From NCBI GenBank assembly GCA_015231885.1, contig JADGAT010000001.1:27436-91435 (forward strand): 64,000 nt of DNA. The letters are read 5' to 3'. Below are positions 19,943 through 61,913 of this stretch, in pieces. The translations under genes and the position numbers were made by a program. The notes under the pieces were generated by a model. The model was not told where the DNA came from and did not search any database. It was given only the letters and a program-made list of their open reading frames with translations. The first letter of the stretch is position 1, and the number at the start of each line of letters is the position of its first letter. Source of the DNA: SAR324 cluster bacterium (GTDB taxonomy: Bacteria > SAR324 > NAC60-12).

Positions 19943-22855
19943 ATGAATATGGGTGTGCTTCATATGACAGCAAAATTCATGCTACGTGCATTCTGTTTGA
20001 TGACCATCTTATGTAGCAGTGCTGGGGTCATGTCAGTTCAAGCAGCAGATGAATATATCATTCAGCAAATTTTAAAATTAGGAAACAAAAAAGCGTATGA
20101 TGCAGTTTTTAGTCCAGACAACCGATTCATAATTACCTTATCCGGAACTCACAAGCTGGAAGTTTGGAATAGCCGAACAGGTAATCCTGTGAAAGCATTT
20201 CCCACCGGAAAACATAAAGCCATGTCGTTGATTTCCCATCCACAGGATTCGGTTTTAATCACTGGGGGTAATGATCATACCATTCATGTATGGGATGTCA
20301 ACCGTGGGAGTACAACTAATGCCATGCGTGGGCATGTGGGAGCAATCACCACATTGGCCATTAATTATGACGGAACCCTGCTGGTTTCGGGAAGTGAGGA
20401 TGGTGCTATTTTGATATGGGATCTGAAACACTTTGCTTTACAAAGTACGATCCAAAAGGCGCATCTCGGCATCGTCCACAGTGTGGACATTCATCCCAAC
20501 GGAAAATTGCTGGCGAGCGGGGGAAAAGATCGCAAAATCAGGATTTGGAACCTGCAAACCGGGAAGATGATCGTTGAGTTCAAGGAGCATGCAGGAGAAG
20601 TAACAAAGGTGGCATTCCACTCGAATGGAAGAATATTAGCTTCGGCCTCTCAAGATAAAACCATCAAATTGTGGAATTGGCAAGAAAAATTTGCAGAACA
20701 TACCCTGAGCAACCATGGCAATGTGGTAACCGGATTGAGCTTTCACGCAAATGGGACGGTTCTGATTTCCAGCAGTGAGGATGAAAGGATCATTCTCTGG
20801 GATATTGAAAAAGGGAAAATGCTTTCCGAATTGAAATCGGTGGATGGCTCCGTCGAAAGTGTTCATTTTGACAGTAGCGGGAAACGAGTTATTGCAGCTA
20901 CAGCAAAAGGATTAGCAGAAGTTTGGGAGTTGGGGCCCTCTTCGTTTCTGGCCTCATTGCAGGGACACCAACGCTTCATTACAGCCCTGGATTTCACAAA
21001 AAATGGCAAGTATTTGCTCTCTGCAGCATTGGATAAAACGATCAAAGTCTGGAGTATGGACCAGCAGCAATTAGCCGTCACGTTCCCATCCGGAAACCAC
21101 CGTGTCCAGGACCTTCGTATGAGTCAGGACAGCCGAAACTTTGCAACCGCAGGTGCCGATTCGCTAGTTGGTATATGGGATACACAATCGGGACAGAGAC
21201 TGGCTTCGTTAGAAAAACATAAAGGAAAAGTCAATAGCATTGATTATCATCCAACACAACCATTTTTAGTGTCTGCTGGATCTGATCGGCAATGGTTTCT
21301 TTGGGATTTGGAGACGAGCCAGGCAACTCAATCCAGCATGACCCATCAAGATCAAATAACCGTAGTGCGGTTCGCTCCTGATGGATCACACTTTGCTACT
21401 GGCAGTGCGGATAAATCTATCATGGTATGGAGTTATCCCCAAGGGCAGCTCGTTCACACATTGACCGGTCATCGTAAAGCAATCAGTGATCTTGCTATTA
21501 GCCCCATTTCACCGATCCTGGCTTCTGCATCTGCTGATGAGACCATTACACTATGGGATATTTCTTCAGAAGGCGGGAAAAAAATACATGATTTGAAAGG
21601 GCATGGCTTTATTGTAACGGGAGTTGCTTTTTCTAAAGACGGCAAAGTTTTGATTTCTGTGTCACGTGATAAAACCGTACGCCTCTGGGATGTGGAAACC
21701 GGAAAGCCGATTAAAATTCTTAGCGGAGAACGCCATCCTATCAGCAAAATGGCCGTACGGCCGGATGGTAAACTGATTGCAGTGGGTACTCTAGGAAATG
21801 AAATCACTTTATTAGGATATCCGCTGGACATCATTGAAGTGAGCAAAAAAAAACAGGGATTGATGACAAAAGGAAACCATGCTTCAAACCAAAATCAGAA
21901 AACTGCGCAAAGGGTTGATATTTCTGATGCTGAAGCTTATATTGTGGATCAATCTGACCTGGAGGAAACTGTCGAAGAGTATGTCGAAGAGCAGATTTAT
22001 CAGGTAACGCAAAAAGAAGACTTTGCCAAGATCCAGGAAACCCGTCAACACAGCCTGAATATTGTGTTGAATAAAGGAGAAGTCTGTGAAAACGCGAACG
22101 ACTTGGAAGAAAAAGCCATTGAGGTATTGCAGATGGCTCCAGGAGACTTATCGGCATACCATGCATTTTTAAAAGTTGCTATCACACGCCAAGATATCAA
22201 TATGATATTTTTGCTGGCAAAAATCAGTTCATACGCATCCTTTGTTCCAAGTCGTTACAACTATGCACTTCCCATTGATGTAGAAAATAACTTCCGCTCC
22301 TGGATAGAAGATATTTTTGAGCAATCTCATATACGACAACAGGATAGTTTCCTGCTTTCACTCAAAAATTGCCTGGGAAAAACAATACAAATGAGGATCC
22401 CAGACATGCTGTATTATTTGGATATTCCAGAAGAATTTATACAAAAAATAATCACCATCCCACGATTTATCGACTTGCGCGATTTTAAAGGTTTAGGAAC
22501 AGAAGAATTTAAAAACCGTTTGTTTGGACAAATTTTGAAAAAACTGGGAAGTTCCACACCATATCAGGATAATCGAAGTCCCTTGGGAAATAATTTTATT
22601 TCCCCACCCGTGCCTTCAGGGCAGCTTGTTGTGAACCTGACACAAACACAACTCTGGGGCAATCCAACGCAGGTTCGCTTCCAGCTCAGAGAAAGAAGCA
22701 ATCCGTGGCAAACGTATTATACGGCAATGGATAAACAGAAAATTCTGTTTCTCCCAACAGGTCAATATTATCTTAAAATTGATAAAAGCATTCGACGTGC
22801 TTTTGTGCTAAAAGCAAATCAGAGCACCCAAATAAAAGGACCTGATTTACAATAG
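19943..22855 (+). CDS. secreted WD40-repeat protein (about 14 blades) with a C-terminal domain of unknown function
   Basis: Signal peptide ending VQA/ADEY. Fourteen WD-type blades, each with a W[DNES] dipeptide at its C-terminal end (LEVWNS, IHVWDV, IRIWNL, IKLWNW, ... VRLWDV). An acidic linker is followed by a ~300 aa C-terminal region with no recognisable motif. An AAGGAGTG RBS precedes the ATG. Confidence 0.8.
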   Translation: MNMGVLHMTAKFMLRAFCLMTILCSSAGVMSVQAADEYIIQQILKLGNKKAYDAVFSPDNRFIITLSGTHKLEVWNSRTGNPVKAFPTGKHKAMSLISHPQDSVLITGGNDHTIHVWDVNRGSTTNAMRGHVGAITTLAINYDGTLLVSGSEDGAILIWDLKHFALQSTIQKAHLGIVHSVDIHPNGKLLASGGKDRKIRIWNLQTGKMIVEFKEHAGEVTKVAFHSNGRILASASQDKTIKLWNWQEKFAEHTLSNHGNVVTGLSFHANGTVLISSSEDERIILWDIEKGKMLSELKSVDGSVESVHFDSSGKRVIAATAKGLAEVWELGPSSFLASLQGHQRFITALDFTKNGKYLLSAALDKTIKVWSMDQQQLAVTFPSGNHRVQDLRMSQDSRNFATAGADSLVGIWDTQSGQRLASLEKHKGKVNSIDYHPTQPFLVSAGSDRQWFLWDLETSQATQSSMTHQDQITVVRFAPDGSHFATGSADKSIMVWSYPQGQLVHTLTGHRKAISDLAISPISPILASASADETITLWDISSEGGKKIHDLKGHGFIVTGVAFSKDGKVLISVSRDKTVRLWDVETGKPIKILSGERHPISKMAVRPDGKLIAVGTLGNEITLLGYPLDIIEVSKKKQGLMTKGNHASNQNQKTAQRVDISDAEAYIVDQSDLEETVEEYVEEQIYQVTQKEDFAKIQETRQHSLNIVLNKGEVCENANDLEEKAIEVLQMAPGDLSAYHAFLKVAITRQDINMIFLLAKISSYASFVPSRYNYALPIDVENNFRSWIEDIFEQSHIRQQDSFLLSLKNCLGKTIQMRIPDMLYYLDIPEEFIQKIITIPRFIDLRDFKGLGTEEFKNRLFGQILKKLGSSTPYQDNRSPLGNNFISPPVPSGQLVVNLTQTQLWGNPTQVRFQLRERSNPWQTYYTAMDKQKILFLPTGQYYLKIDKSIRRAFVLKANQSTQIKGPDLQ

Positions 22856-35642: not shown

Positions 35643-37235
35643 ATGCCGACATTTTATCTCGATGACAACCCTATAGAATTCGAGCCTGGTGAAAAGGTTC
35701 TGGCTGCTGCGCTGCGATCAGGATTTCATATTCCTCACTATTGTTACCATCCTGCGTTGTCTATTGTTGCTACCTGCCGAATGTGCCTTGTTGACGTAGT
35801 GGACATGGGAAATGGTCGTCCTGCCCCCAAGCTGATGACCTCATGTTCTATGGATCCTGCCGATGGTATGAAAATCGAGACAAAAAATGAAAAAGTGAAA
35901 GAAGCTCGAGAGTTGGTAATGGAATTTTTACTGGTCAATCATCCTTTGGATTGTCCGATCTGTGATCAAGCAGGAGAGTGCACACTGCAAGACTTTTCTT
36001 TTGAGTACGGTTCTGGCTCTTCAGAAATGGAATATTCCAAACGTGTCTATGGGTGGCGTGATATTGGTACGTTTGTGATGTTGGAACGGAACCGCTGTAT
36101 CCACTGTACCCGTTGCCACCGTTTTACGACAGAGGTTACCGGAACCCATGAATTTGGAACATTCAACCGTTCTCATCAATTGACGGTAGATACGTTTACG
36201 GATCGCCCGATGACAAATAAGTTCCAGGGAAATATGGCCGATATTTGTCCGGTCGGATGCATCACAGAGCGTGAATTCCGCTTCAAACGCCGTGCATGGA
36301 AACTGCAAAAAACAAACTCCATCTGTACCCACTGCTCCACGGGCTGCAATATCACGGTAGAGCAAGACCAAAACACGGTATTTCGTTTGAAGCCTAGAGA
36401 AAATCAAGAGGTTAACCAGTGGTGGATGTGTGATGATGGCCGTGTTAGCCTTCGCCAGTTCAACAACAAGAAAAACCGAATCATGCAGCCGATGGGACGT
36501 GTGCAGGGGACTCTTGTTAAAGCCAGTTGGGAACAAATCTATGAGGCCATAAAAGACAAAGTGAAACAATTGGCTGTCAAAAAAGATGAAGTTGTGGCCA
36601 TTACAGACACACATGCCAGTAACGAGGAATTGTTTTTGTTGAAAAAACTGCTCCACGATGTTTTTAGCTCAGAGCATGTTTTCTTTCCGCTCCGTCTCTG
36701 GGCACAACCCGATTCTCCTAATTTTATTGATACATTGATTACAACAGACAAAAGCCCGAATACAGCAGGAGCAATCGCACTGGGAATAAAAGGCAATGAG
36801 GATGATAGTGCTCTCAAACAAGTGCTGAGTGAAAAAACCAAGCTCGCTTTTGTGTTGGGCAATCCGTTGGGCAAAGAATCTGAAATTTATGATTTGGTAT
36901 CGAAAGCAGACCTGATCATTTGTATTGGTACAGTTCTTAATGAGTGGGCAGAGCGCGCAGATGTTCTGCTGCCGGGCTCCACACCTGTGGAAAAAGAGGG
37001 GACATTTATCAATAAAAATCACCGGGTCCAAAAAATCAATGCTGCCGTTAAAGCTCCCCGGCATGCTAAAGCCGACTGGTTGATTCTACAGGAGTTGATT
37101 CAATCTTTGGGAAAACAATCAACATTTCAATCGACATCTGAAATTTTTAATTCCCTGGCCACCACATTAGAAACATTTCAAGGGTTAACATTCGAAGATG
37201 TGGGCGATCTTGGCTGCTCACTCCCGGCCACATAA
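35643..37235 (+). CDS. nuoG: NADH-quinone oxidoreductase subunit G (75 kDa, short 530-aa form)
   Basis: N-terminal [2Fe-2S] and [4Fe-4S] cysteine clusters (CRMCLVDV, HPLDCPICDQAGEC, CIHCTRCHRF) plus a molybdopterin-like region. AAGGAA RBS. Confidence 0.85.
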   Translation: MPTFYLDDNPIEFEPGEKVLAAALRSGFHIPHYCYHPALSIVATCRMCLVDVVDMGNGRPAPKLMTSCSMDPADGMKIETKNEKVKEARELVMEFLLVNHPLDCPICDQAGECTLQDFSFEYGSGSSEMEYSKRVYGWRDIGTFVMLERNRCIHCTRCHRFTTEVTGTHEFGTFNRSHQLTVDTFTDRPMTNKFQGNMADICPVGCITEREFRFKRRAWKLQKTNSICTHCSTGCNITVEQDQNTVFRLKPRENQEVNQWWMCDDGRVSLRQFNNKKNRIMQPMGRVQGTLVKASWEQIYEAIKDKVKQLAVKKDEVVAITDTHASNEELFLLKKLLHDVFSSEHVFFPLRLWAQPDSPNFIDTLITTDKSPNTAGAIALGIKGNEDDSALKQVLSEKTKLAFVLGNPLGKESEIYDLVSKADLIICIGTVLNEWAERADVLLPGSTPVEKEGTFINKNHRVQKINAAVKAPRHAKADWLILQELIQSLGKQSTFQSTSEIFNSLATTLETFQGLTFEDVGDLGCSLPAT

Positions 37236-53526: not shown

Positions 53527-54300
53527 TCAGGATGTCACTGGTACTAATTCAAATCCAAATTGTTTAGCCTGACGTTTTAGACGTTGTAACGCGTTTGAAT
53601 CCTTTTGAGAGAAATACTCTTCTCCGAGTTCGTGATAGGATTTTCCCTCTTTGAGGATCAAGTAAATAACTTTGAGTATTTTATGAGCAATAGCGACAAT
53701 GGCTTTTTTAGAACCTCGACGGGATTTGAGTCGATAATATTTGGCTTTCCAAAAGCTGTTTTTCTTTTTGACAGCGGCCCAGGCCATTTCCACAAGCATT
53801 TCTCGAAAAAGATGTTTTTTAGCCGGGTTGCTCCCATTGCGTCTTTTGCCGGCACTTTCGTTATTGCCGGGACAAACTCCGGCCCAGTTGCTCAAGGCCT
53901 CCGGGGATCGAAAGGCCATCAGATCAGGGCCCAATTCGCCTAGAATAGATTGAGAGGCGACTTTATCAATGCCAGGAATTTCATCGAGCCGTTTCAAGGC
54001 TTCTTGATGGTCGCCCATGAGGCTTTCTACTTGCTTTTCAAGAGCGGTAATCTCATTCTCTAGTGTATTCAGGATATGGAGCAAACTCCGTAATTGAAAA
54101 CGATGGTGGTCATTAAAAAAGCCTTGGATAGAACGATATAATTCCTCAGATTTATTAACAAGGGTTCCACGACATTGTTGTTGAACGCCCTCTAAAGTGG
54201 GTTGAGAACATTCAAGTAAATAGCGCATCAAATTTCGACCGGTCACTCCAAAGAGTTCGGAGACCACAGAATCAATTTTGATATTAGCTGTTTCAAACAA
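53527..54300 (-). mobile_element. IS110-family transposase remnant (C-terminal Transposase_20 region only; N-terminal DEDD catalytic domain missing)
   Basis: 257 aa matching the C-terminal two-thirds of IS110-family transposases (LDEIPGIDKVASQSILGELG, HLFREMLVEMAWAAVKKK, AIVAIAHKIL). An in-frame stop lies immediately upstream, and no N-terminal domain is found in any frame of the adjacent 210 bp. Confidence 0.7.
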
Positions 54301-54512
54301 TTTATGAACCCGACGTTAAGTGGGTAGCCGTTTTTACATGAGCACATACATGGGCAGCCGCCCTCAAACTGAGCGTATTTCAGTATAACTCAGTATAAAT
54401 GGCTGATTTCAGCAATCCCTTAATTTAACTAGCCTGGTAGAGCTTTATAACACTCAGCATAAATAAGTCAAATTCGTTCAATACGAGCCAACTGCTCGTT
54501 TGTGGGTTCTGC

Positions 54513-55886
54513 TCAACAGTACCAGGGTTCGTTCAGGTAAGGAAAATCCGTACGACCTGGAACCAGGGGAAGCGGTGGTAAGGAGGAATGGGGACTGGTT
54601 TTTGTACTGGCACAATTCCAGAGTGCCTCAAATATCTCTGGTCGAGTCTGGTTCTTTTGCATTCCTGATGAGACCAACTCCAACACGTCTGAATAAAGTT
54701 CATCCATTGTTGAATCGGGATGCTCCCATTCATAAACTAAACTCTGCTGGTTAAAATTTTCTGATTGTTTCTGCATGTCAGGAATTTCGAACAGCATTGA
54801 TCCTTCTGTGATCAATAAGCGTATTGCCAATTGAATGGGGGATGTTTGCTCCGCCAATCCCAATTCAAATAAAGATGAAAGAAATTCCTGGTAGCCGGTG
54901 ACACTGCTCCATGGAGTAAAAGGGATGAAGGTAGGATTGAGAGTCAACCCGGCTTTTTGGCACAATTGAACCACCTGGATGAAGTCTGCAACCGTATGTT
55001 TTTTATTCAAAAGTGCCAGAATATGGTCATCCATCGCCTCCACGGCACTGGTAACGACCACACAGCCTGTTTCTTTCAGAAGCGGGAGATGTTCAGAATG
55101 CCTCAGCAAATGCTCCACCTTGATGGTGACATCATAAGTAACTTTGGGAAATTCCTGGTGCAATGCCTGAACAATCGGAACGGCATGTCCCACGCCATTG
55201 AAAAAATCGGGATCACCAAATGTAATATGTTCGGCACCAGCCTTCACCTGTTGGCGAATGTCTGCTAACACAACATCCTTTTGGATGATTCGAAAATTAC
55301 CTTCATAAACCGGAACGATCGGACAATGACGGCATGAATGTTTGCAGCCCCTTGTTGCCTCCACGTAACCTGTCTTTCGGGGTGGATGACTGCCCCAATG
55401 GAGTTGTGCATATTTCGATAATTCTGGTAAATCGCAACGATCCGGGATTAAAAATTGCTGACGGGCCAGAGAAACCAAAGGTTCGGTTTGTTGATCAGAA
55501 AGGCTTCCTGCTAAAATACTGTGCAGTCGATGGCAAAGGTGGAGTAATCCGGATTCATATTCTCCTCCCAGGATCGTTTGAGCACCCAGCTTACGGAGAA
55601 AGACTTCATTCAAAGGAGCATAAAGCCCGTAAAAACAAAGATGGGCCAGGGGATTGAGCTGACGCACATGAGTGAAGACTTCTACGGCAAGCCGGGTTGC
55701 TGTGTGCATGGGAATATAAAAGGCAACCAGATGGGCCTGACGGACGATCTCTGAGGGCAGAGAATCGACCGCAAGATCCACACAGTTCACTTGAAACCCG
55801 CTTTGCCGCAGCCAGGCAGCCGGTGAAGCAAGTCCGAATGGCTGATGTCCCAGGTCGTATGTCGAAACTAATACAATTTGCAACAC
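54513..55886 (-). CDS. B12-binding domain-containing radical SAM protein
   Basis: N-terminal cobalamin-binding Rossmann-like region, a radical SAM CxxxCxxC motif (CKHSCRHCP) and a C-terminal Cys (..EPWYC). Confidence 0.75.
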   Translation of the reverse strand: MLQIVLVSTYDLGHQPFGLASPAAWLRQSGFQVNCVDLAVDSLPSEIVRQAHLVAFYIPMHTATRLAVEVFTHVRQLNPLAHLCFYGLYAPLNEVFLRKLGAQTILGGEYESGLLHLCHRLHSILAGSLSDQQTEPLVSLARQQFLIPDRCDLPELSKYAQLHWGSHPPRKTGYVEATRGCKHSCRHCPIVPVYEGNFRIIQKDVVLADIRQQVKAGAEHITFGDPDFFNGVGHAVPIVQALHQEFPKVTYDVTIKVEHLLRHSEHLPLLKETGCVVVTSAVEAMDDHILALLNKKHTVADFIQVVQLCQKAGLTLNPTFIPFTPWSSVTGYQEFLSSLFELGLAEQTSPIQLAIRLLITEGSMLFEIPDMQKQSENFNQQSLVYEWEHPDSTMDELYSDVLELVSSGMQKNQTRPEIFEALWNCASTKTSPHSSLPPLPLVPGRTDFPYLNEPWYC

Positions 55887-55891
55887 AGGCT

Positions 55892-56833
55892 CTATTTTCC
55901 AGGCTGATAATAAGGGTTGGTTCCATTGGCATGATCTGTCACATCCAAAACCTCAACAATCCCTGGAATGTGTTCTTTGACCAATACTTCGACACCTTGC
56001 TTCAATGTCACATTGACCATCCCGCATCCTTTACAGCCGCCGCCAAATTCCAAGTAAACCCGTCCGTCTTCAATATCAATTAATTGAATGACGCCTCCAT
56101 GAGAGGCGACCATGGGGTTGATTTGTTCTTCAAGCAGCTGCTCCATTGCTTCTTTCACGGATCCTGTCAAAGGACTCACTTCTCGGTTTGGATTTTTAAT
56201 GCTCAAACCATGCTCTGCATCTGACTCACGCTCCACTATTGTATCTTGAAGGTATAACAAGCTTTCCTGGTTCAGATAAACGTCAATCTCCCCCACTTTA
56301 ATGATGGTATCTTGTGCCGTGTCCTCACTTTCCTGGACAAAATCAACGCTGTACTTTGCTATTTTTGGAGAAATGGCACTTGCGATGATACGGAAGCCTT
56401 TCAATGACGATCCCGCTTCCTGCAGCCTTTTTTTGATTTCCTCCAAAGCCGCATCCGTGATGGTGAATTTTGAATCGGCCAGCGCCTGGAGCAATTCTTC
56501 ATAATCTTCAATAAAATAAAAGGAATCAAAACCATTTTCATAGAGCAGTTCTGCTGCTTGTCTTGCTTCACCATGGTTGCTTCCATATATCAAAATATCC
56601 CCCTCGTAAGGCATCTGGTAGATGGAATTCTCAAAATGTTCGATGGGTAATGAGTGAGCTCCTGGTAAATGGGACTGTTCAAAATCTTCTGATGACCTCA
56701 GATCAAAAACATAGGATTTCGTTGCAGTTCTGCGTTTTTCCAAAAACTCTTCATAAGACACCTTGAACTCATCTGAATTGAACTTTGGTTCTTCTGACTT
56801 CTCATTTCCGGTTAAATTTTTAAATTTGAACAT
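55892..56833 (-). CDS. rhodanese + IscA/HesB-like + NifU-like (NfuA-type) fusion protein
   Basis: N-terminal rhodanese fold, a middle A-type-carrier-like segment, and a C-terminal Nfu domain with the GGGCKGCGM motif. Lies 6 nt upstream of the radical SAM gene on the same strand. Confidence 0.6.
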   Translation of the reverse strand: MFKFKNLTGNEKSEEPKFNSDEFKVSYEEFLEKRRTATKSYVFDLRSSEDFEQSHLPGAHSLPIEHFENSIYQMPYEGDILIYGSNHGEARQAAELLYENGFDSFYFIEDYEELLQALADSKFTITDAALEEIKKRLQEAGSSLKGFRIIASAISPKIAKYSVDFVQESEDTAQDTIIKVGEIDVYLNQESLLYLQDTIVERESDAEHGLSIKNPNREVSPLTGSVKEAMEQLLEEQINPMVASHGGVIQLIDIEDGRVYLEFGGGCKGCGMVNVTLKQGVEVLVKEHIPGIVEVLDVTDHANGTNPYYQPGK

Positions 56834-57080
56834 GAATTTTTCCTTTCTCCAAGCAAATGTAAATCAAATAGGACTCTTTTAGTCCTGATTTTACCCGAAG
56901 TATTACGGATGTCAACAGTTCTGTTTTGAAACAAATTCCTAATTTATGAGCTTACATGGCAGGACACCCGATACCATTCTTGTATTGCAACTAATCTTTT
57001 CTTACATTACAATTTTGTCTGACAAATCATTTCTAAGAATGAAAAAAGACCATGCATGCCTTGTTTAATGTAGGACAATC

Positions 57081-59336
57081 ATGAATGACAACGATAAACC
57101 AAAAGGGGGGTTAATAGAAGAACTGAACGAATTACGACAGAAGGTTGCCCTTTTAGAAAAGACTCTTTCTCAAAAGGAAATGCATGCATCTGAAGAAGTA
57201 ACGTCAAGGCTCTATAAGACAAACGAATCCGTTAATCTGCGAAAGCTGGCCGAACAACATTTACCAGCACCTCCACCCATTGATCTGCTGGAATTAACCC
57301 GGGAAGATATCGAGCACTTGTTTCATGAGCTGCAGGTCCATCAGATTGAGTTAGAGCTCCAAAACGATGAGCTTCTCAAAAACCAGCAAGAATTGGAACA
57401 ATCCCGAGATCTCCTTTACGATCTCTATGACCTTGCCCCAGTAGGATATCTGACGGTTAATAAAAGCGGCATCATCCGGAAAGCCAACCTCACCCTGGCA
57501 GCTATGCTCAATGCCGATAAACAAAGTTTGGTTGGCAAGCCGTTATCGCATTTTGTACATCCAGAAGACCAGAATCTGTATTTTTTGAAGGGCAGGGATC
57601 TGTTTAGAAGCCCCAGTTTGAAACAAACTGAGATCAGGATGCTAAACAGTGACGGTTCCTTCTTCCATGCGATGCTGACAGGAAGGAAAACAGAAAATAC
57701 GAAGGAGGCGCGACTGGTTGTTACCGACATCACCCCCCTCAAAAGAACCGAAGAGGCACTGAAGTATGCAGAAAAAGAAAACAAACGTGCTGCGGATATT
57801 GTGGCCAATATAGGCGTGGGGCTTCACATATACCAGTTGGAAGATATTGACGATGATTCTTCTTTGAGGATGATCACTGTCAATGAAGCAGCAGCCGTGA
57901 TGACAGGCATTCCTGCTGGAAAGACGATCGGTAGAACCCTGGATGAGAATTTTCCTGAACTGCGCAGGATGGAAGTGCCCCAAAAGTATGCACAGGTGGC
58001 TCGTTCCGGCATATCAATAGAACTTGGAGAAATCCATTACAGTAATGAACAGATCGGCTTTGCGACATTTTTTGTAAAAGTCTTTCCGCTTCCTGAAAAC
58101 TGCGTGGGAGTTTCGTTTGAGAATATTACCAAACGCAAACTGCTGGAGTCCCAGCTCCATCATTCGCAGAGATTGGACTCCCTGGGAACCCTGGCAGGAG
58201 GGATTGCTCATGAGTTCAATAATATTTTGTCGATTATTCGAGGCTACGGCGACATTCTGCTCCAAAAACTTCCTGAAGACAGTACAGAGAAATCCTATAT
58301 GGAGAACGTCCATACAGCCAGCAGAAGAGCCGTTGATCTGACAAAACAAATCTTAACCTTCAGTCGGATGGAACATCAAAAAAACGATGTACATTACATA
58401 CAGCCTTTGATTAAAGAAGTCCTCAAAATGATGAGAGCCACCTTACCTGTCACCATTGAGATCCAGGAAGATATCGATTCCAATTGCGCCCCCATCCTGG
58501 CAGACCCATCACAAATACATCAAGTACTTGTCAACCTCTTTACCAATGCGTTCCATGCCATGGAAGAGACTGGAGGTCTTCTGACAGTCACTTTAAAGCA
58601 AGAAACCCATAATGGGAATCAGCCGCTGCTATCCGAATTAAAAGGTGATTCGTTTCTGAAGCTGACAGTCAGCGATACAGGATATGGCATTCCAATCGAA
58701 GATCAGGAAAAAATATTTGATCCCTTTTTTACCACAAAAAAAGTAGGTGAAGGAACCGGACTTGGTTTATCCATGGTTCACAGCATTATCAAACAACATG
58801 GAGGCATCATTACGGTAGAAAGTGAGATGAAGACGGAGCAGTGCTCTGGGGGAACCTCTTTCCATATTTATCTTCCGACCGCTTCCAGAAGTTCCGAAAG
58901 CCAGCAGGAAGAAAAAAAGACACTTCCCAGAGGAAGAGGACACATCTTAGTTGTTGATGACGACACGTTGATCACCGAAGTGTACCAAGATATATTGACG
59001 GAAACTGGATATGACGTCACTGCTTTTGACAACGAGTTGGATGCATTGAAAAAATTTCAGCAAAATCCAGATCAATTTGATTTGATTTTTACAGACTTCA
59101 CCATGCCTCACTTAACCGGAGATCAGTTGAGCCAACAAATATTAAAGATCCGACCCGACATTCCCATTATTCTGACAACAGGTTACAGCAATATGATCTC
59201 TGAAAAAAAAGCAAAAGCTCTTGGAATTCAAGAATTTTTGATGAAGCCTGTTGAAAAAATTCAGCTGCTTGAAACCATTCAGAAGCTGCTTAAAAAGAAT
59301 CCAGAAAATAACCATTCAAATACGATTTTTTCTTGA
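57081..59336 (+). CDS. PAS-domain hybrid sensor histidine kinase (coiled coil, PAS, HisKA, HATPase_c, receiver)
   Basis: H-box IAHEFNNIL, N/G boxes (NLFTNAFHAM, DTGYGIP, GTGLGLS) and a C-terminal receiver (ILVVDDD...DLIFTDFTMP). Confidence 0.8.
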   Translation: MNDNDKPKGGLIEELNELRQKVALLEKTLSQKEMHASEEVTSRLYKTNESVNLRKLAEQHLPAPPPIDLLELTREDIEHLFHELQVHQIELELQNDELLKNQQELEQSRDLLYDLYDLAPVGYLTVNKSGIIRKANLTLAAMLNADKQSLVGKPLSHFVHPEDQNLYFLKGRDLFRSPSLKQTEIRMLNSDGSFFHAMLTGRKTENTKEARLVVTDITPLKRTEEALKYAEKENKRAADIVANIGVGLHIYQLEDIDDDSSLRMITVNEAAAVMTGIPAGKTIGRTLDENFPELRRMEVPQKYAQVARSGISIELGEIHYSNEQIGFATFFVKVFPLPENCVGVSFENITKRKLLESQLHHSQRLDSLGTLAGGIAHEFNNILSIIRGYGDILLQKLPEDSTEKSYMENVHTASRRAVDLTKQILTFSRMEHQKNDVHYIQPLIKEVLKMMRATLPVTIEIQEDIDSNCAPILADPSQIHQVLVNLFTNAFHAMEETGGLLTVTLKQETHNGNQPLLSELKGDSFLKLTVSDTGYGIPIEDQEKIFDPFFTTKKVGEGTGLGLSMVHSIIKQHGGIITVESEMKTEQCSGGTSFHIYLPTASRSSESQQEEKKTLPRGRGHILVVDDDTLITEVYQDILTETGYDVTAFDNELDALKKFQQNPDQFDLIFTDFTMPHLTGDQLSQQILKIRPDIPIILTTGYSNMISEKKAKALGIQEFLMKPVEKIQLLETIQKLLKKNPENNHSNTIFS

Positions 59337-59562: not shown

Positions 59563-59886
59563 ATGCCAATCAATTATGAAAAAGAAAAAAATGCTCTTAT
59601 TTTCAAACTCGCAGGAAACATTGCTTGGGAAACCGCACACAGATACAGCGAAGAAATGATGAATTTGGCGGAACAAGAAGATTATGAGTCGATACTGGTC
59701 GACTTTGAAAACGTCGATTTTGTTGACTCAACAGGAGTTGGATTATTAGTCGAGTTATATAAAATCGCACAGACCAGGAAGAAAAAGCTCTCCGTCTGCA
59801 GGATGAAAATGGCCTATAAGCTGGCAATGATTGGATTAGGCAGTATTATTGTCAATTATGACAGCAAAGAAGAGGCTTTGTGTTAA
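59563..59886 (+). CDS. STAS-domain protein (anti-sigma factor antagonist-like)
   Basis: 107 aa with the SpoIIAA-like DSTGVG motif. Overlaps the GTG start of the downstream kinase by 7 nt. Confidence 0.7.
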   Translation: MPINYEKEKNALIFKLAGNIAWETAHRYSEEMMNLAEQEDYESILVDFENVDFVDSTGVGLLVELYKIAQTRKKKLSVCRMKMAYKLAMIGLGSIIVNYDSKEEALC

Positions 59887-61913
59887 CAGATGATACGGAT
59901 AAAACCATCCGAATACTGGTTATCGATGATGATGCTCTCATTCTCCATGCGACCTCACAGACTTTGAGGTCGGCGGGTTATGAAGTGATAGAGGCATTGA
60001 CAGGCAGGGAAGGGTTGCGCCTGGCCACAGAAATAATACCTGAATTGATTCTTCTTGATGTTGAGCTACCGGATTTGCATGGTTTTGACGTGTGCCGCAG
60101 CATTAAGGCCGATCCGGCACTGGCACACACTTATGTAATGATGATCTCGGGCATCAAGATAAAATCGGAGCACTTGGTAGAAGGTCTTGAAATTGGAGCA
60201 GATGATTATGTGGTACGCCCTGTCCCAAATCGTGAACTTCTGAAACGTGTACAAATTGCGTTGCGCATCAAGCAAACAGAAGAGGAGTTGAAACAACACA
60301 GGGACCAGCTGGAACAATTGGTCGAAAAGCGTACGGCGGAATTACAGGCAAGCAATGCACAGCTGCAGCAGGAAATCACGGAGCGCAAACAGATCGAAGA
60401 TAAGGTCAATAAGCTGGCATTGGCCGTTGAATATAGCCCCAGCATGGTTATGATAACAGATAGCAATGGCATTATCGAATATGTCAATCCTAGATTTGTC
60501 GAAATCACCGGCATCCCGGCTCAAACCATAACTGGGAAAAATGCCAATACCGATTTAGGACTGCCCACCTCAGCAACGGATGATCAAGCAGCACTTTGGA
60601 ATAAAGTCCGTTCAGGGCAATTATGGAAAGGAGAGTTTCATAATAAACGGCATGATGGAACCTTTTATTATGAAGAAGCGTCTATTGCCCCTCTCACAGA
60701 TGAATCCGGCCGCATTACCCACTATATCAAAATTGCCAACGATATCACGGAGCGCAGACAACTTGAGTCTCAGGTACGACAATCCCAAAAACTGGATGCC
60801 TTAGGAACACTGGCAGGAGGAATTGCCCATGAATACAACAATATTTTAGCAATAATACAGGGATATGGAGATCTGTTGCTTTCTAGACTCCCGGAAAACG
60901 GCAAAGAAAAACACTATGTTGAGAAAATACGTGAAGCAGGAAAAAGAGCGGTTGATTTGACAAAGCAAATTTTGACTTTCAGTCAGATGGATAGTCAAAA
61001 ACTCCGAGTGCAATACCTAACCCCCTTGATCAGCGAGTCACTTAAAATGATGAGGGCAACGCTACCTGTCACCATTGATATTCAACACAACCTTGATCCT
61101 GGCTGTTCTCCAATTTTAGCGGATTCCTCCCAAATACATCAGGTACTAGTAAATTTATTTACCAATGCGTCTCATGCGATGGAAACAACAGGAGGTGTCC
61201 TGAAAATCAGCTTGCAGGAAAAGAAACATCATAACACTCAGGAGGTGTTGCCCAAACTAAAAACGGATACTTTTTTAAAGCTGACAGTCCAGGATACAGG
61301 CTGTGGTATACCATCAGAAGATCAGGAAAAAATATTTGATCCCTTTTTTACAACCAGGCAAGTTGGTCAAGGCAGAGGATTTGGACTGTCAGTTGTTCAC
61401 AGTATCATTGAAAAGCACGGAGGGGCGATTACAGTAGAAAGTGTAATCAACCAGGGAACAGCTTTTCACATTTATCTTCCTATTTCTCATGAAACAGTTC
61501 ACGAAGCCCAAGAAAAAAAGAAACAAGAACGATCTCTTTACCAAGGGAAAGGTCACATTTTAGTGGTGGATGACGAAGAGGCACTAGTGGTGATTCATGA
61601 AGCACTATTGACAGACATTGGATACGAAGTCACGAGCTTTACTGACGCATTGGAAGCATTAGCAAAATTCCAAGAAAGTCCATCTCGATTTGATTTGGTA
61701 TTTACCGACTTCACCATGCCTCATTTAACCGGAGACCAATTGAGCCAGCAGCTGTTGAAGATCCATCCCGATATTCCAATTATTATGGCAACGGGTTACA
61801 GCAGTATGATTTCTAAAGAAAAAGCAAAATCCATTGGTATTCGTGAATTCATGATGAAGCCTATTGATAATGATCAGCTGGTTGCCACCATTCAGAAACT
61901 GCTAAATGCATAA
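59880..61913 (+). CDS. hybrid sensor histidine kinase (receiver, PAS, HisKA, HATPase_c, receiver); paralog of the 57081 kinase
   Basis: GTG start. N-terminal receiver (ILVIDDD), H-box IAHEYNNIL and a C-terminal receiver. The kinase core is highly similar to 57081-59336. Confidence 0.8.
   Translation: MLTDDTDKTIRILVIDDDALILHATSQTLRSAGYEVIEALTGREGLRLATEIIPELILLDVELPDLHGFDVCRSIKADPALAHTYVMMISGIKIKSEHLVEGLEIGADDYVVRPVPNRELLKRVQIALRIKQTEEELKQHRDQLEQLVEKRTAELQASNAQLQQEITERKQIEDKVNKLALAVEYSPSMVMITDSNGIIEYVNPRFVEITGIPAQTITGKNANTDLGLPTSATDDQAALWNKVRSGQLWKGEFHNKRHDGTFYYEEASIAPLTDESGRITHYIKIANDITERRQLESQVRQSQKLDALGTLAGGIAHEYNNILAIIQGYGDLLLSRLPENGKEKHYVEKIREAGKRAVDLTKQILTFSQMDSQKLRVQYLTPLISESLKMMRATLPVTIDIQHNLDPGCSPILADSSQIHQVLVNLFTNASHAMETTGGVLKISLQEKKHHNTQEVLPKLKTDTFLKLTVQDTGCGIPSEDQEKIFDPFFTTRQVGQGRGFGLSVVHSIIEKHGGAITVESVINQGTAFHIYLPISHETVHEAQEKKKQERSLYQGKGHILVVDDEEALVVIHEALLTDIGYEVTSFTDALEALAKFQESPSRFDLVFTDFTMPHLTGDQLSQQLLKIHPDIPIIMATGYSSMISKEKAKSIGIREFMMKPIDNDQLVATIQKLLNA

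What the first reader, a model, noticed from the sequence alone, without database searches (positions are those of the whole stretch)
54513..56833. Two-gene module: rhodanese-IscA-Nfu fusion protein upstream of a B12-dependent radical SAM enzyme
The two genes are 6 nt apart on the same strand. The upstream product fuses a rhodanese (sulfurtransferase) domain to an A-type-carrier-like segment and a NifU-like GGGCKGCGM domain. This reads as a dedicated sulfur and Fe-S delivery protein. The downstream product has an N-terminal cobalamin-binding domain, a CKHSCRHCP radical SAM motif and a C-terminal Cys (EPWYC). The substrate is unknown. A dedicated cluster-maturation partner for a class-B radical SAM enzyme, sitting beside an IS remnant, suggests an uncharacterised modification or biosynthetic step.
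Basis: partly seen in the sequence, partly recalled or inferred. Interest (0 to 1): 0.6.

Follow-up and report, generated by a model that had tools for sequence, protein, structure and literature searches.

The report
Selenoprotein radical SAM beside NfuA carrier
The downstream gene does not end where it seems to: its TGA "stop" encodes selenocysteine, placing it in a widespread radical SAM selenoprotein family of unknown function (CUAEP-tail, sister to the arsenic-carbon bond-forming enzyme ArsL), and the upstream gene is an NfuA-type iron-sulfur carrier whose rhodanese domain is catalytically dead.

Summary
Both minus-strand ORFs and the quoted motifs are real, and the genes lie 5 nt apart. 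Three parts of the reading fail.

1. The radical SAM ORF does not end at EPWYC. The TGA at 54513-54515 is followed in frame by AEPTNEQLARIERI and a SECIS-like hairpin. The same codon is TGA in 68 of 80 related genomes and TGC/TGT in 12. The true gene is 54468-55886 (472 aa). It scores 597 bits against NCBIfam NF040546, the uncharacterised "CUAEP/CCAEP-tail radical SAM (seleno)protein" family.
2. The rhodanese domain contains no cysteine, so it cannot carry sulfur. The rest of that protein is NfuA-like: a cysteine-free A-type domain plus an Nfu CxxC.
3. Cobalamin dependence is unsupported. The Pfam B12 hit is below threshold, and the closest characterised relatives are ArsL and AprD4.

Across phyla this radical SAM gene keeps company with one orthologous L-amino-acid ligase and with iron or Fe-S trafficking genes (NfuA, YggX, IscSU). 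In this window only the NfuA partner remains, next to an IS110 remnant.

My best reading is inferred, not shown: ArsL-like transfer of a SAM-derived aminocarboxypropyl group onto a soft atom held by the Cys-Sec tail, with NfuA supplying the cluster. This is a new member of a known but unexplained family.

The parts
55892..56833 (-). nfuA-like gene (313 aa; stop codon included). It encodes an N-terminal cysteine-free rhodanese-homology domain (about residues 1-120), a cysteine-free (degenerate) A-type-carrier domain (122-216) and an Nfu domain with CxxC (Cys267, Cys270).
   Evidence: Pfam scores: NifU 77 bits, Rhodanese 36 bits, Fe-S_biosyn 27.6 bits. NCBIfam NfuA TIGR03341 scores 126 bits, below its cutoff of 269.
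54468..55886 (-). CUAEP-tail radical SAM selenoprotein gene (472 aa including Sec458). It has a GTG start at 55886, or alternatively a TTG at 55883. CX3CX2C lies at Cys181/185/188, and the tail reads ...NEPWYC-U-AEPTNEQLARIERI.
   Evidence: NF040546 scores 597 bits (cutoff 500). 118 of 120 database homologues end at EPWYC. In 80 genome loci the next codon is TGA in 68 and TGC/TGT in 12, always followed by AEP (VEP in L042).
54513..54515 (-). In-frame UGA read as selenocysteine (residue 458).
   Evidence: Cysteine-containing homologues P0067 and P0096 read CCAEP at the aligned position.
54483..54499 (-). SECIS-like hairpin ACGAGC-AGUUG-GCUCGU. Its loop (54489-54493) starts 19 nt after the UGA. 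The stem extends by 3 more pairs across a 1-nt bulge.
   Evidence: The equivalent hairpin averages 6.4 bp in 72 TGA loci, against 4.4 bp in 12 Cys-codon loci and 4.5 bp in shuffles (Mann-Whitney p = 6e-6). There are 41 distinct stem sequences. The commonest loops are AGUU, GUU, AGGUG, GGU and AGUUG (47 of 72 loci).
56888..56915 (-). Promoter-like site TTGACA-16 nt-TAAAAT (11 of 12 matches), about 55 nt upstream of the nfuA-like start codon. It is a candidate operon promoter.
   Evidence: This is a consensus match only, and the number of such sites in the region is no higher than in shuffles.
53527..54300 (-). IS110-family transposase remnant (C-terminal 257 aa; the N-terminal catalytic domain is missing). 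It starts 167 nt downstream of the radical SAM stop codon, where relatives carry CobS/CobT-like and/or L-amino-acid-ligase genes.

Best explanation
Shown: this is a two-gene operon in a SAR324-cluster bacterium.
- Gene 1 encodes an NfuA-type [4Fe-4S] carrier: a degenerate, Cys-free A-type domain plus an Nfu CxxC domain, preceded by a catalytically dead rhodanese-homology domain.
- Gene 2 encodes a member of the CUAEP/CCAEP-tail radical SAM family (NCBIfam NF040546). It is a selenoprotein. UGA458 is decoded as Sec with the help of a hairpin 19 nt downstream, giving a flexible C-terminal arm ...EPWY-Cys-Sec-AEP....

Inferred mechanism:
- Like its closest characterised homologue ArsL, the enzyme uses its single CX3CX2C [4Fe-4S] cluster to cleave SAM at the C-gamma-S bond.
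- It then joins the 3-amino-3-carboxypropyl group to a soft (chalcogen or metalloid) atom that the vicinal Cys-Sec pair on the mobile tail carries into the active site. The product would be a methionine- or arsinothricin-like amino acid.
- In most genomes a co-inherited L-amino-acid ligase would then couple that amino acid into a dipeptide.
- The NfuA-like protein (YggX in Acidobacteriota) loads or repairs the oxygen- and turnover-labile cluster. It does not deliver sulfur through its rhodanese domain.

In this window the ligase is not within 64 kb. An IS110 remnant occupies the downstream position.
For: Identity of the two genes:
- NF040546 scores 597 bits, above its cutoff of 500.
- The UGA is followed by an in-frame AEP tail.
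- The aligned codon is TGA in 68 loci and TGC/TGT in 12 of 80.
- The SECIS hairpin is enriched relative to Cys-codon loci and shuffles, and its stem covaries.
- 118 of 120 database homologues are truncated at the same Cys.

Relationship to ArsL:
- The second-best family is ArsL NF040542, at 302 bits.
- The protein is about 35% identical to a Bacillus cereus RCCLKC-tail protein over 410 residues, and Cys457 aligns with the first Cys of the ArsL CC pair.
- The ArsL tail cysteines bind As(III), and the aminocarboxypropyl group of SAM is transferred to it (preprint 10.64898/2026.04.29.721666).
- An ArsL variant ending in MCCA, which keeps only the vicinal CC, is the most active variant (PMC13598754).

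Structure:
- The AF2 model has pLDDT 89, and the tail (residues 431-457) has low confidence, consistent with a flexible arm.
- The other conserved cysteines (C35, C84, C275) lie inside beta strands. Only the radical SAM triad and the tail pair therefore look functional, as in ArsL.

Sign of an amino-acid product:
- One orthologous ligase family (44-63% identical between phyla) lies within 3 kb in 41 of 56 loci that have adequate flanks.
- Its closest solved relative is BL00235 (3VOT, E 9e-34), which makes Met-Gly and Met-Met (PMC6920838).

Fe-S link:
- NfuA, YggX, IscU, IscS or Rrf2 genes lie within 8 kb (the fetched flank) in 41 of those 56 loci.
- NfuA is known to rebuild the cluster of a radical SAM enzyme, LipA (PMC13066941).
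Against: - No experiment exists on any family member. The SAM cleavage mode (aminocarboxypropyl versus 5'-deoxyadenosyl) cannot be read from sequence.
- No ars, mer or other metalloid genes were seen among the recurrent neighbour clusters that I annotated in the 80 loci, or near the gene in this window, so the heteroatom is unknown.
- The ligase persists next to the rhodanese-NfuA gene in a clade with no radical SAM gene in the fetched stretch (7 kb each side). The ligase therefore does not strictly depend on this enzyme.
- Many of the 80 loci are Acidobacteriota, so part of the shared gene order reflects common descent.
- Sec-decoding genes (selA, selB, selD, tRNA-Sec) are not in the 64-kb window. 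The organism's ability to insert Sec is therefore inferred, not shown.
- The window hairpin alone is not significant (z = -1.1).
Confidence: 0.4

Rival explanations
1. Canonical 5'-deoxyadenosyl radical enzyme with a redox-active tail. The C-terminal Cys-Sec pair would act like the Gly-Cys-Sec-Gly arm of thioredoxin reductase. It would serve as a mobile selenenylsulfide/selenol that donates a hydrogen atom or electrons to quench a substrate radical on an unknown small molecule, for example in a dehydratase- or reductase-type reaction like AprD4. NfuA would simply mature the cluster.
For: The best structural match is AprD4 (6fd2: Foldseek E 1.7e-19, TM 0.67-0.70; sequence E 2.4e-7). The tail is flexible in the AF2 model. 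Sec is strongly preferred over Cys (68 versus 12 loci), which fits redox or H-atom chemistry in which a selenol outperforms a thiol. No metalloid-handling genes appear nearby.
Against: By sequence the protein is far closer to ArsL (302 bits) than to AprD4 (30 bits). The ArsL tail is a substrate-binding site, not a redox shuttle. This reading leaves the conserved ligase partner unexplained.
Confidence: 0.25
2. Sulfur (or selenium) insertion enzyme of the LipA/BioB/MiaB type. It would consume an auxiliary Fe-S cluster or a persulfide as the chalcogen source, and the neighbouring NfuA or YggX would be there to rebuild the sacrificed cluster after each turnover.
For: Fe-S trafficking genes recur as neighbours across phyla. 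NfuA regenerates the sacrificial cluster of LipA. Foldseek finds MiaB and RimO at E about 1e-11 to 1e-12, and their N-terminal Rossmann-like domain holds an auxiliary cluster.
Against: No loop-located Cys triad is available for a second cluster. C35, C84 and C275 sit inside predicted beta strands and are absent from ArsL. In several phyla the NfuA gene belongs to the general isc block rather than being private to this enzyme.
Confidence: 0.15
3. A class B cobalamin-dependent radical SAM methyltransferase is served by a private partner that delivers both sulfur (via rhodanese) and Fe-S clusters.
For: The N-terminal domain is a five-stranded Rossmann-like fold, and Foldseek matches TsrM, OxsB, MgmA, CysS and TokK. 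Many homologues carry precomputed Pfam B12-binding hits. CobS/CobT-like genes follow the radical SAM gene in SAR324 relatives L082, L084 and L090.
Against: In the window protein the B12-binding hit is 18.1 bits against a gathering score of 32.1. Every NCBIfam B12-rSAM model scores far below its cutoff. Of the three ArsL papers searched, two do not mention cobalamin and the third mentions it only for TsrM. The rhodanese domain has no cysteine. The fusion also occurs with no radical SAM gene in the fetched stretch (7 kb each side).
Confidence: 0.08

Closest known systems
NCBIfam NF040546, CUAEP/CCAEP-tail radical SAM (seleno)protein
   Same: The match is full length (profile positions 1-457 of 468) at 597 bits, above the cutoff of 500. 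The CX3CX2C motif, the ...EPWYC-U-AEP tail and the Sec/Cys alternation are all as the family name describes.
   Different: Nothing differs in sequence terms. The family has no known function, and Haft's 2022 preprint (10.1101/2022.07.06.499078) calls it uncharacterised. No paper in the searched library was found to describe the ligase, NfuA and YggX neighbourhood found here.
ArsL (NF040542, RCCLKC-tail radical SAM; arsinothricin biosynthesis, C-As bond formation)
   Same: ArsL is the nearest characterised homologue (302 bits; about 35% identity over 410 residues). It has the same domain order: a Rossmann-like N-domain, a radical SAM core and a short Cys-rich C-terminal tail. Cys457 aligns with the first Cys of the ArsL CC pair. 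An ATP-grasp gene also lies near a B. cereus ArsL-type gene.
   Different: The score is below the ArsL cutoff of 450. The tail is C-U-AEP followed by about 10 or more further residues, not RCCLKC, so there are two chalcogen ligands rather than three thiols. The extra invariant C84 and C275 are absent from ArsL. There is no arsR, ACR3, MIP or arsM context. The partner ligase family is different (22-26% identity to the B. cereus ATP-grasp).
NfuA (TIGR03341/PRK11190), Fe-S biogenesis protein of Gammaproteobacteria
   Same: Residues 124-309 align end to end with the 190-residue NfuA model. The protein has a Cys-free A-type domain followed by an Nfu domain with CxxC.
   Different: It scores 126 bits against a cutoff of 269. 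It also carries an extra N-terminal cysteine-free rhodanese-homology domain of about 120 residues, an architecture seen in about 1800 SAR324 and related proteins of 308-313 aa.
AprD4 (PDB 6fd2), radical SAM 1,2-diol dehydratase
   Same: AprD4 is the best structural match to the AF2 model (Foldseek E 1.7e-19, TM 0.67-0.70) and the only PDB sequence hit (E 2.4e-7).
   Different: Identity is only 18%. AprD4 has no Cys-Sec tail, and its substrate (paromamine) and context (aminoglycoside cluster) are unrelated.
Thioredoxin reductase C-terminal Gly-Cys-Sec-Gly arm (comparison from memory)
   Same: Both have a vicinal Cys-Sec pair on a flexible C-terminal extension.
   Different: The fold and cofactors are entirely different. 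Here the pair is followed by a conserved AEPTEEQ... segment that also encodes the SECIS element. This is an analogy, not homology.

Membership tests
NF040546 CUAEP/CCAEP-tail radical SAM (seleno)protein | Whole-protein score above the curated cutoff (500 bits) | tested here: met
   597.3 bits, E 1.8e-179, profile positions 1-457 of 468
NF040546 CUAEP/CCAEP-tail radical SAM (seleno)protein | C-terminal C-U/C-A-E-P motif | tested here: met
   ...EPWYC-TGA-AEPTNEQLARIERI-stop. The same motif occurs in all 80 fetched loci, with one VEP variant
NF040546 CUAEP/CCAEP-tail radical SAM (seleno)protein | Radical SAM CX3CX2C cluster motif | tested here: met
   C181, C185 and C188 are invariant in alignment A1. 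Pfam Radical_SAM scores 54.6 bits
Bacterial selenoprotein gene | In-frame UGA aligned with Cys in homologues, with conserved coding sequence after it | tested here: met
   68 TGA, 9 TGC and 3 TGT among 80 loci, followed by AEPT[EGR][ED]Q... in frame. Cys forms P0067 and P0096 align at this position
Bacterial selenoprotein gene | SECIS stem-loop just downstream of the UGA | tested here: met
   The window hairpin is at 54483-54499. Family-wide the stem averages 6.4 bp, against 4.4 bp in Cys-codon loci (p = 6e-6). The loop starts 19-20 nt after the UGA in 54 of 72 loci, and there are 41 distinct stem sequences. The window hairpin on its own is not significant (z = -1.1)
Bacterial selenoprotein gene | Genome encodes selA, selB, selD and tRNA-Sec | not testable with these tools
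   No tRNA-Sec was found in the 64-kb window, and none of the 20 larger ORFs scanned is selA, selB or selD. The rest of the genome is not available
ArsL (NF040542) | Score above the curated cutoff (450 bits) | tested here: not met
   302.4 bits
ArsL (NF040542) | C-terminal RCCLKC (CCxxC) arsenite-binding motif | tested here: not met
   The tail is C-U-AEP..., and only the first Cys aligns
ArsL (NF040542) | Cleaves SAM to methylthioadenosine plus an aminocarboxypropyl group and forms a C-As bond | not testable with these tools
   This needs a biochemical assay
NfuA (TIGR03341) | Score above the curated cutoff (269 bits) | tested here: not met
   126.5 bits, although residues 124-309 align with model positions 2-190 of 190
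NfuA (TIGR03341) | Degenerate (Cys-free) A-type domain followed by an Nfu domain with CxxC | tested here: met
   Pfam Fe-S_biosyn at 122-216 and NifU at 231-295. The only cysteines are C267 and C270
Rhodanese sulfurtransferase | Catalytic cysteine in the active-site loop | tested here: not met
   There is no cysteine anywhere in residues 1-266. The loop reads YGSNHGEAR. 114 of 120 homologues have no Cys in their first 125 residues
Class B (cobalamin-dependent) radical SAM | Recognisable B12-binding domain | tested here: inconclusive
   Pfam B12-binding scores 18.1 bits against a gathering score of 32.1. The fold is Rossmann-like and matches both AprD4, which I recall works without cobalamin, and the B12-dependent enzymes TsrM and OxsB
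Class B (cobalamin-dependent) radical SAM | Binds and requires cobalamin | not testable with these tools
   This needs biochemistry. Of the three ArsL papers searched, two do not mention cobalamin and the third mentions it only for TsrM

The most novel reading that the evidence does not exclude
The CUAEP-tail family is a second ArsL-like 'carbon-to-heteroatom' radical SAM enzyme, present in at least 589 of the 600 pattern-matched stretches across GTDB species genomes and in many phyla. It would use a Cys-Sec clamp to attach the aminocarboxypropyl group of SAM to a chalcogen or metalloid other than arsenic (for example Se, S, Te or Sb). A dedicated Met-type L-amino-acid ligase would then turn the product into a so far unknown dipeptide metabolite tied to iron-sulfur or redox homeostasis.
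Probability: 0.25. Interest if true: 0.85.

Novelty: new member of a known kind. Interest (0 to 1): 0.55.

Why it matters
The window's gene is an ordinary member of a catalogued family, but that family is one of the largest radical SAM selenoprotein families with no known reaction.

Its only characterised relative, ArsL, performs very unusual chemistry: non-canonical SAM cleavage and carbon-metalloid bond formation. The conserved genetic company shown here consists of one orthologous L-amino-acid ligase plus NfuA, YggX or Isc genes. I found this company described in no paper of the searched library. Together with a cultured carrier (Thermomicrobium roseum DSM 5159), it turns 'function unknown' into a concrete, testable biochemical proposal.

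There is also a practical annotation point. Public records, including the SAR324 record identical to this window and the RefSeq entry for T. roseum, truncate the protein at the selenocysteine.

Tried and rejected
- I looked in the window for the partners seen elsewhere. tblastn with L-amino-acid ligase, CobS, CobT and DUF169 queries found nothing in 64 kb. Pfam scans of 20 larger ORFs found only housekeeping genes (FtsY, UvrD, PlsX, Nuo, Cox, Mfd, Sdh) and no selenium genes.
- I tried to fetch the window's own contig through exact-protein look-ups of P0001 and P0121. Neither is on record. I therefore could not tell whether the SAR324 ligase P0242 (L091) belongs to the same genome.
- I considered an auxiliary Fe-S site made of C35, C84 and C275. 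I rejected it as unlikely because these residues lie inside predicted beta strands and are missing from ArsL.
- I considered the rhodanese domain as a sulfur or selenium relay and rejected it, because the domain has no cysteine.
- I considered the B. cereus ArsL-linked ATP-grasp as an orthologue of the CUAEP-linked ligase and rejected it (22-26% identity).
- Rfam has no match in the region, and no bacterial SECIS family matched at gathering threshold.
- Literature searches for CUAEP, CCAEP, NF040546 and ArsL-like, and for radical SAM combined with L-amino-acid ligase and selenocysteine, found only Haft's one-sentence mention.
- I checked whether the short NuoG-like ORF (35643-37235) continues past a UGA. 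It does not; nuoJ and nuoK follow it.
Full report
OBSERVATION

ORF 55892..56833 encodes 313 aa. Pfam finds Rhodanese at residues 33-108 (36 bits), Fe-S_biosyn at 122-216 (27.6 bits) and NifU at 231-295 (77 bits).

ORF 54513..55886 encodes 457 aa. Pfam Radical_SAM scores 54.6 bits. The B12-binding hit is only 18.1 bits against a gathering score of 32.1.

The TAG stop of the first gene and the GTG start of the second are 5 nt apart. The motifs GGGCKGCGM and CKHSCRHCP are present. Downstream, 53527..54300 (-) is the C-terminal 257 aa of an IS110-family transposase. It matches model positions 160-343 of 343, so it is a remnant.

THE RADICAL SAM GENE IS A SELENOPROTEIN GENE

NCBIfam places the protein in NF040546, 'CUAEP/CCAEP-tail radical SAM (seleno)protein', at 597 bits (cutoff 500). 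The runner-up is ArsL NF040542 at 302 bits (cutoff 450).

The ORF's 'stop' is TGA at 54515-54513. It is followed in frame by AEPTNEQLARIERI and a second TGA at 54470-54468. The true product is therefore 472 aa and ends ...NEPWY-Cys-Sec-AEP....

Comparative evidence is strong:
- 118 of the 120 best database homologues end exactly at ...EPWYC. The other two continue with CCAEP....
- In 80 loci fetched from species-representative genomes of many phyla, the codon after EPWYC is TGA in 68 and TGC/TGT in 12. It is always followed in frame by AEP(T)(E/G/R)(E/D)Q... (VEP in L042).
- A hairpin follows the UGA. In the window it is ACGAGC-AGUUG-GCUCGU at 54483-54499, and its loop begins 19 nt after the UGA.
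- Across 72 TGA loci the best local stem averages 6.4 bp. It averages 4.4 bp in the 12 Cys-codon loci, which encode the same peptide, and 4.5 bp in shuffles (Mann-Whitney p = 6e-6).
- The loop starts 19-20 nt after the UGA in 54 of 72 loci and is AGUU, GUU, AGGUG, GGU or AGUUG in 47 of them. The stems have 41 different sequences, which indicates compensatory change.

The window hairpin alone is not statistically remarkable (z = -1.1). The case rests on the family comparison.

No tRNA-Sec or sel gene lies in the 64-kb window. The host's Sec machinery is therefore inferred.

The identical NCBI record (P0001, a SAR324 cluster bacterium MAG on a 290-kb contig) is annotated as truncated at the Cys. 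So is the RefSeq protein of Thermomicrobium roseum DSM 5159, whose gene also reads C-TGA-AEP.

THE UPSTREAM PROTEIN

The whole protein has two cysteines, C267 and C270, which form the Nfu CxxC.

The rhodanese-homology domain therefore has no catalytic cysteine. Its active-site loop reads YGSNHGEAR. In addition, 114 of 120 homologues of this fusion have no Cys in their first 125 residues. It cannot be a sulfurtransferase.

The A-type-carrier segment is also Cys-free. That is the 'degenerate' form typical of NfuA, and residues 124-309 align end to end with the NfuA model. The score is 126 bits against a cutoff of 269.

The three-domain architecture (308-313 aa) is common in SAR324 and related 'Deltaproteobacteria', with about 1800 hits.

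FOLD OF THE RADICAL SAM PROTEIN

The AF2 model has pLDDT 89 and pTM 0.88. It shows a five-stranded Rossmann-like N-domain, a TIM-like core and a low-confidence, presumably mobile tail from residue 431.

The best solved matches are AprD4 (E 1.7e-19), then TsrM, OxsB, MgmA, CysS and TokK, then MiaB and RimO. By sequence, the only PDB hit is AprD4.

The family-specific invariant cysteines C84 and C275, and the near-invariant C35, lie within predicted beta strands and are absent from an ArsL-type sequence. The exposed candidate ligands are the radical SAM triad and the Cys-Sec pair, which is the same logic as in ArsL.

Cobalamin dependence is neither shown nor favoured. Of the three ArsL papers searched, two do not mention cobalamin and the third mentions it only for TsrM.

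GENOMIC COMPANY

I clustered all ORFs in the 80 loci and annotated cluster representatives.

Among 56 loci with at least 3 kb on both sides:
- 41 have an L-amino-acid ligase (ATP-grasp_4 + ATPgrasp_N + LAL_C2) within 3 kb. It is usually immediately downstream on the same strand.
- 41 have an iron or Fe-S trafficking gene within the 8-kb fetched flank.
- 38 have both.

The iron or Fe-S genes are:
- NfuA-like, in Calditrichota, Latescibacterota, NC10, Gemmatimonadota, Actinomycetota and SAR324.
- YggX 'Iron_traffic', in Acidobacteriota.
- IscS-IscU-SufT-Rrf2 blocks, in Gemmatimonadota and Latescibacterota.
- Nfu_N plus 2 x NifU proteins, in two Proteobacteria.

NC10 loci read PntB-LAL-NfuA-rSAM, and L007 reads LAL-NfuA-rSAM-DUF169-FIST, all on one strand.

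The ligases from six phyla are 44-63% identical to each other, so they form one orthologous family. Their closest solved relative is BL00235 (3VOT, E 9e-34), which makes Met-Gly and Met-Met.

Much of the Acidobacteriota signal reflects shared ancestry. The cross-phylum recurrence is the meaningful part.

CLOSE RELATIVES OF THE WINDOW

- L081 (radical SAM protein 74% identical) has RhdNfuA-rSAM with a 5-nt gap, and the ligase 3.3 kb away.
- L082, L083, L084 and L090 have RhdNfuA-rSAM-CobS-CobT, followed in L084 by the ligase and in L090 by a metallo-beta-lactamase-fold gene and then the ligase.
- L089 has Usp-RhdNfuA-rSAM.
- An abundant clade with the 308-aa form has IscU-DUF6494-RhdNfuA-MBL-ligase and no radical SAM gene.

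The window has no ligase, CobS, CobT or DUF169 gene within 64 kb. The IS110 remnant sits where relatives carry those genes.

A SAR324 ligase (P0242, 78% identical to that of L081) exists on other contigs. I could not link it to this genome.

INTERPRETATION

Shown: this is an nfuA-like gene plus a CUAEP-tail radical SAM selenoprotein gene, probably co-transcribed. A promoter-like TTGACA-16-TAAAAT lies at 56888-56915, but it is a consensus match only.

Inferred, about 0.4:
- ArsL's C-terminal cysteines bind As(III), which receives the 3-amino-3-carboxypropyl group of SAM. An ArsL variant that keeps only the vicinal CC is highly active.
- By analogy, the Cys-Sec arm carries a soft heteroatom into the active site for carbon-heteroatom bond formation.
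- The product would be a Met-like amino acid, which the Met-type ligase then couples.
- NfuA or YggX keeps the cluster loaded. The window also encodes an aa3-type oxidase, so the organism respires oxygen.

The identity of the heteroatom is open. No ars or mer genes accompany the family.

Rivals:
- A thioredoxin-reductase-like redox or H-atom-donor tail on a canonical 5'-deoxyadenosyl enzyme (0.25).
- A LipA/MiaB-style sacrificial-cluster chalcogen insertase (0.15).

Whether the NfuA is 'dedicated' leans towards no. It looks like the lineage's general NfuA, positioned beside a favoured client.

NOVELTY AND SCORE

The gene is a new member of a known, named family. Its selenoprotein nature is already encoded in the NCBIfam name.

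No function is published. The one mention found in the library calls it uncharacterised. I did not find the ligase and Fe-S-trafficking association described there. It makes the family's chemistry directly testable, for example in T. roseum.

Interest is 0.55.

Noticed in passing
L085 10339-10440 (Thermomicrobium roseum DSM 5159 megaplasmid NC_011961, gene TRD_RS12835 / WP_012643191.1): [quoted passage not shown] The next codon is TGA, followed in frame by AEPLEDPSGPVASQVRMVDQPLR and a GGACCC-GUC-GGGUCC hairpin. It is probably a truncated selenoprotein annotation. Its neighbours are a PLP aminotransferase, an MFS transporter and a GNAT.
   Followed up: partly
L086 (Bacillus cereus AH820 plasmid pAH820_272, 244212-255465): An ArsL-type 'RCCLKC-tail radical SAM protein' sits with two ArsR genes, a MIP channel, a GTP-binding protein, a GNAT, ACR3 and ArsC, and also an ATP-grasp protein and a phosphate transporter. 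This suggests that arsinothricin-like products may also be ligated in Bacilli. That ATP-grasp is only 22-26% identical to the CUAEP-linked ligase.
   Followed up: partly
L087/L088 6243-9967: In an abundant 'Deltaproteobacteria'/SAR324-like clade the gene order is IscU, DUF6494, rhodanese-NfuA (308 aa), a small metallo-beta-lactamase-fold protein, then a convergent L-amino-acid ligase. There is no radical SAM gene. The NfuA-ligase pairing therefore survives loss or relocation of the radical SAM gene.
   Followed up: no
L082 7861-10770; L084 9560-12422; L090 9611-12534: In SAR324 relatives a CobS-like AAA+ protein (CobS_N + AAA_5) and a CobT-like protein (CobT + CobT_C) follow directly after the radical SAM gene, with no CobN in view. 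Both are absent from the window. Their role is unknown; it could be cobalt or corrinoid handling, or a generic AAA+/VWA chaperone pair.
   Followed up: no
window 53527-54300 (-): This is an IS110-family transposase fragment lacking about 160 N-terminal residues (the catalytic domain). It starts 167 nt after the radical SAM stop codon. It may mark the rearrangement that separated this gene pair from the ligase seen in relatives.
   Followed up: partly
window 56870-56886 (-): A terminator-like hairpin (AGGACT-AAAAG-AGTCCT followed by a T-rich run) lies between the promoter-like site and the nfuA-like start codon. It could be a leader or attenuator structure, or chance.
   Followed up: no
window 57081-59336 (+), 59563-59886 (+), 59880-61913 (+): Two large hybrid PAS histidine kinase / response-regulator proteins have very similar C-terminal halves (shared stretches such as LGTLAGGIAHE.NNIL and TDFTMPHLTGDQLSQQ). 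They flank a small STAS-domain protein and are transcribed divergently from the nfuA-like gene. They are probable paralogues.
   Followed up: no
window 19943-22855 (+): This 970-aa protein is dominated by WD40 beta-propeller repeats (Pfam WD40, nine stretches, 343 bits). That is unusual but not unknown in bacteria.
   Followed up: no
L007 9532-11572; cluster 16 in 11 loci: A DUF169 (PF02596) gene directly follows the radical SAM gene or the ligase in 11 loci from several phyla. In L007 a FIST-domain sensor gene follows it. It is another uncharacterised, recurrent component of the system.
   Followed up: partly
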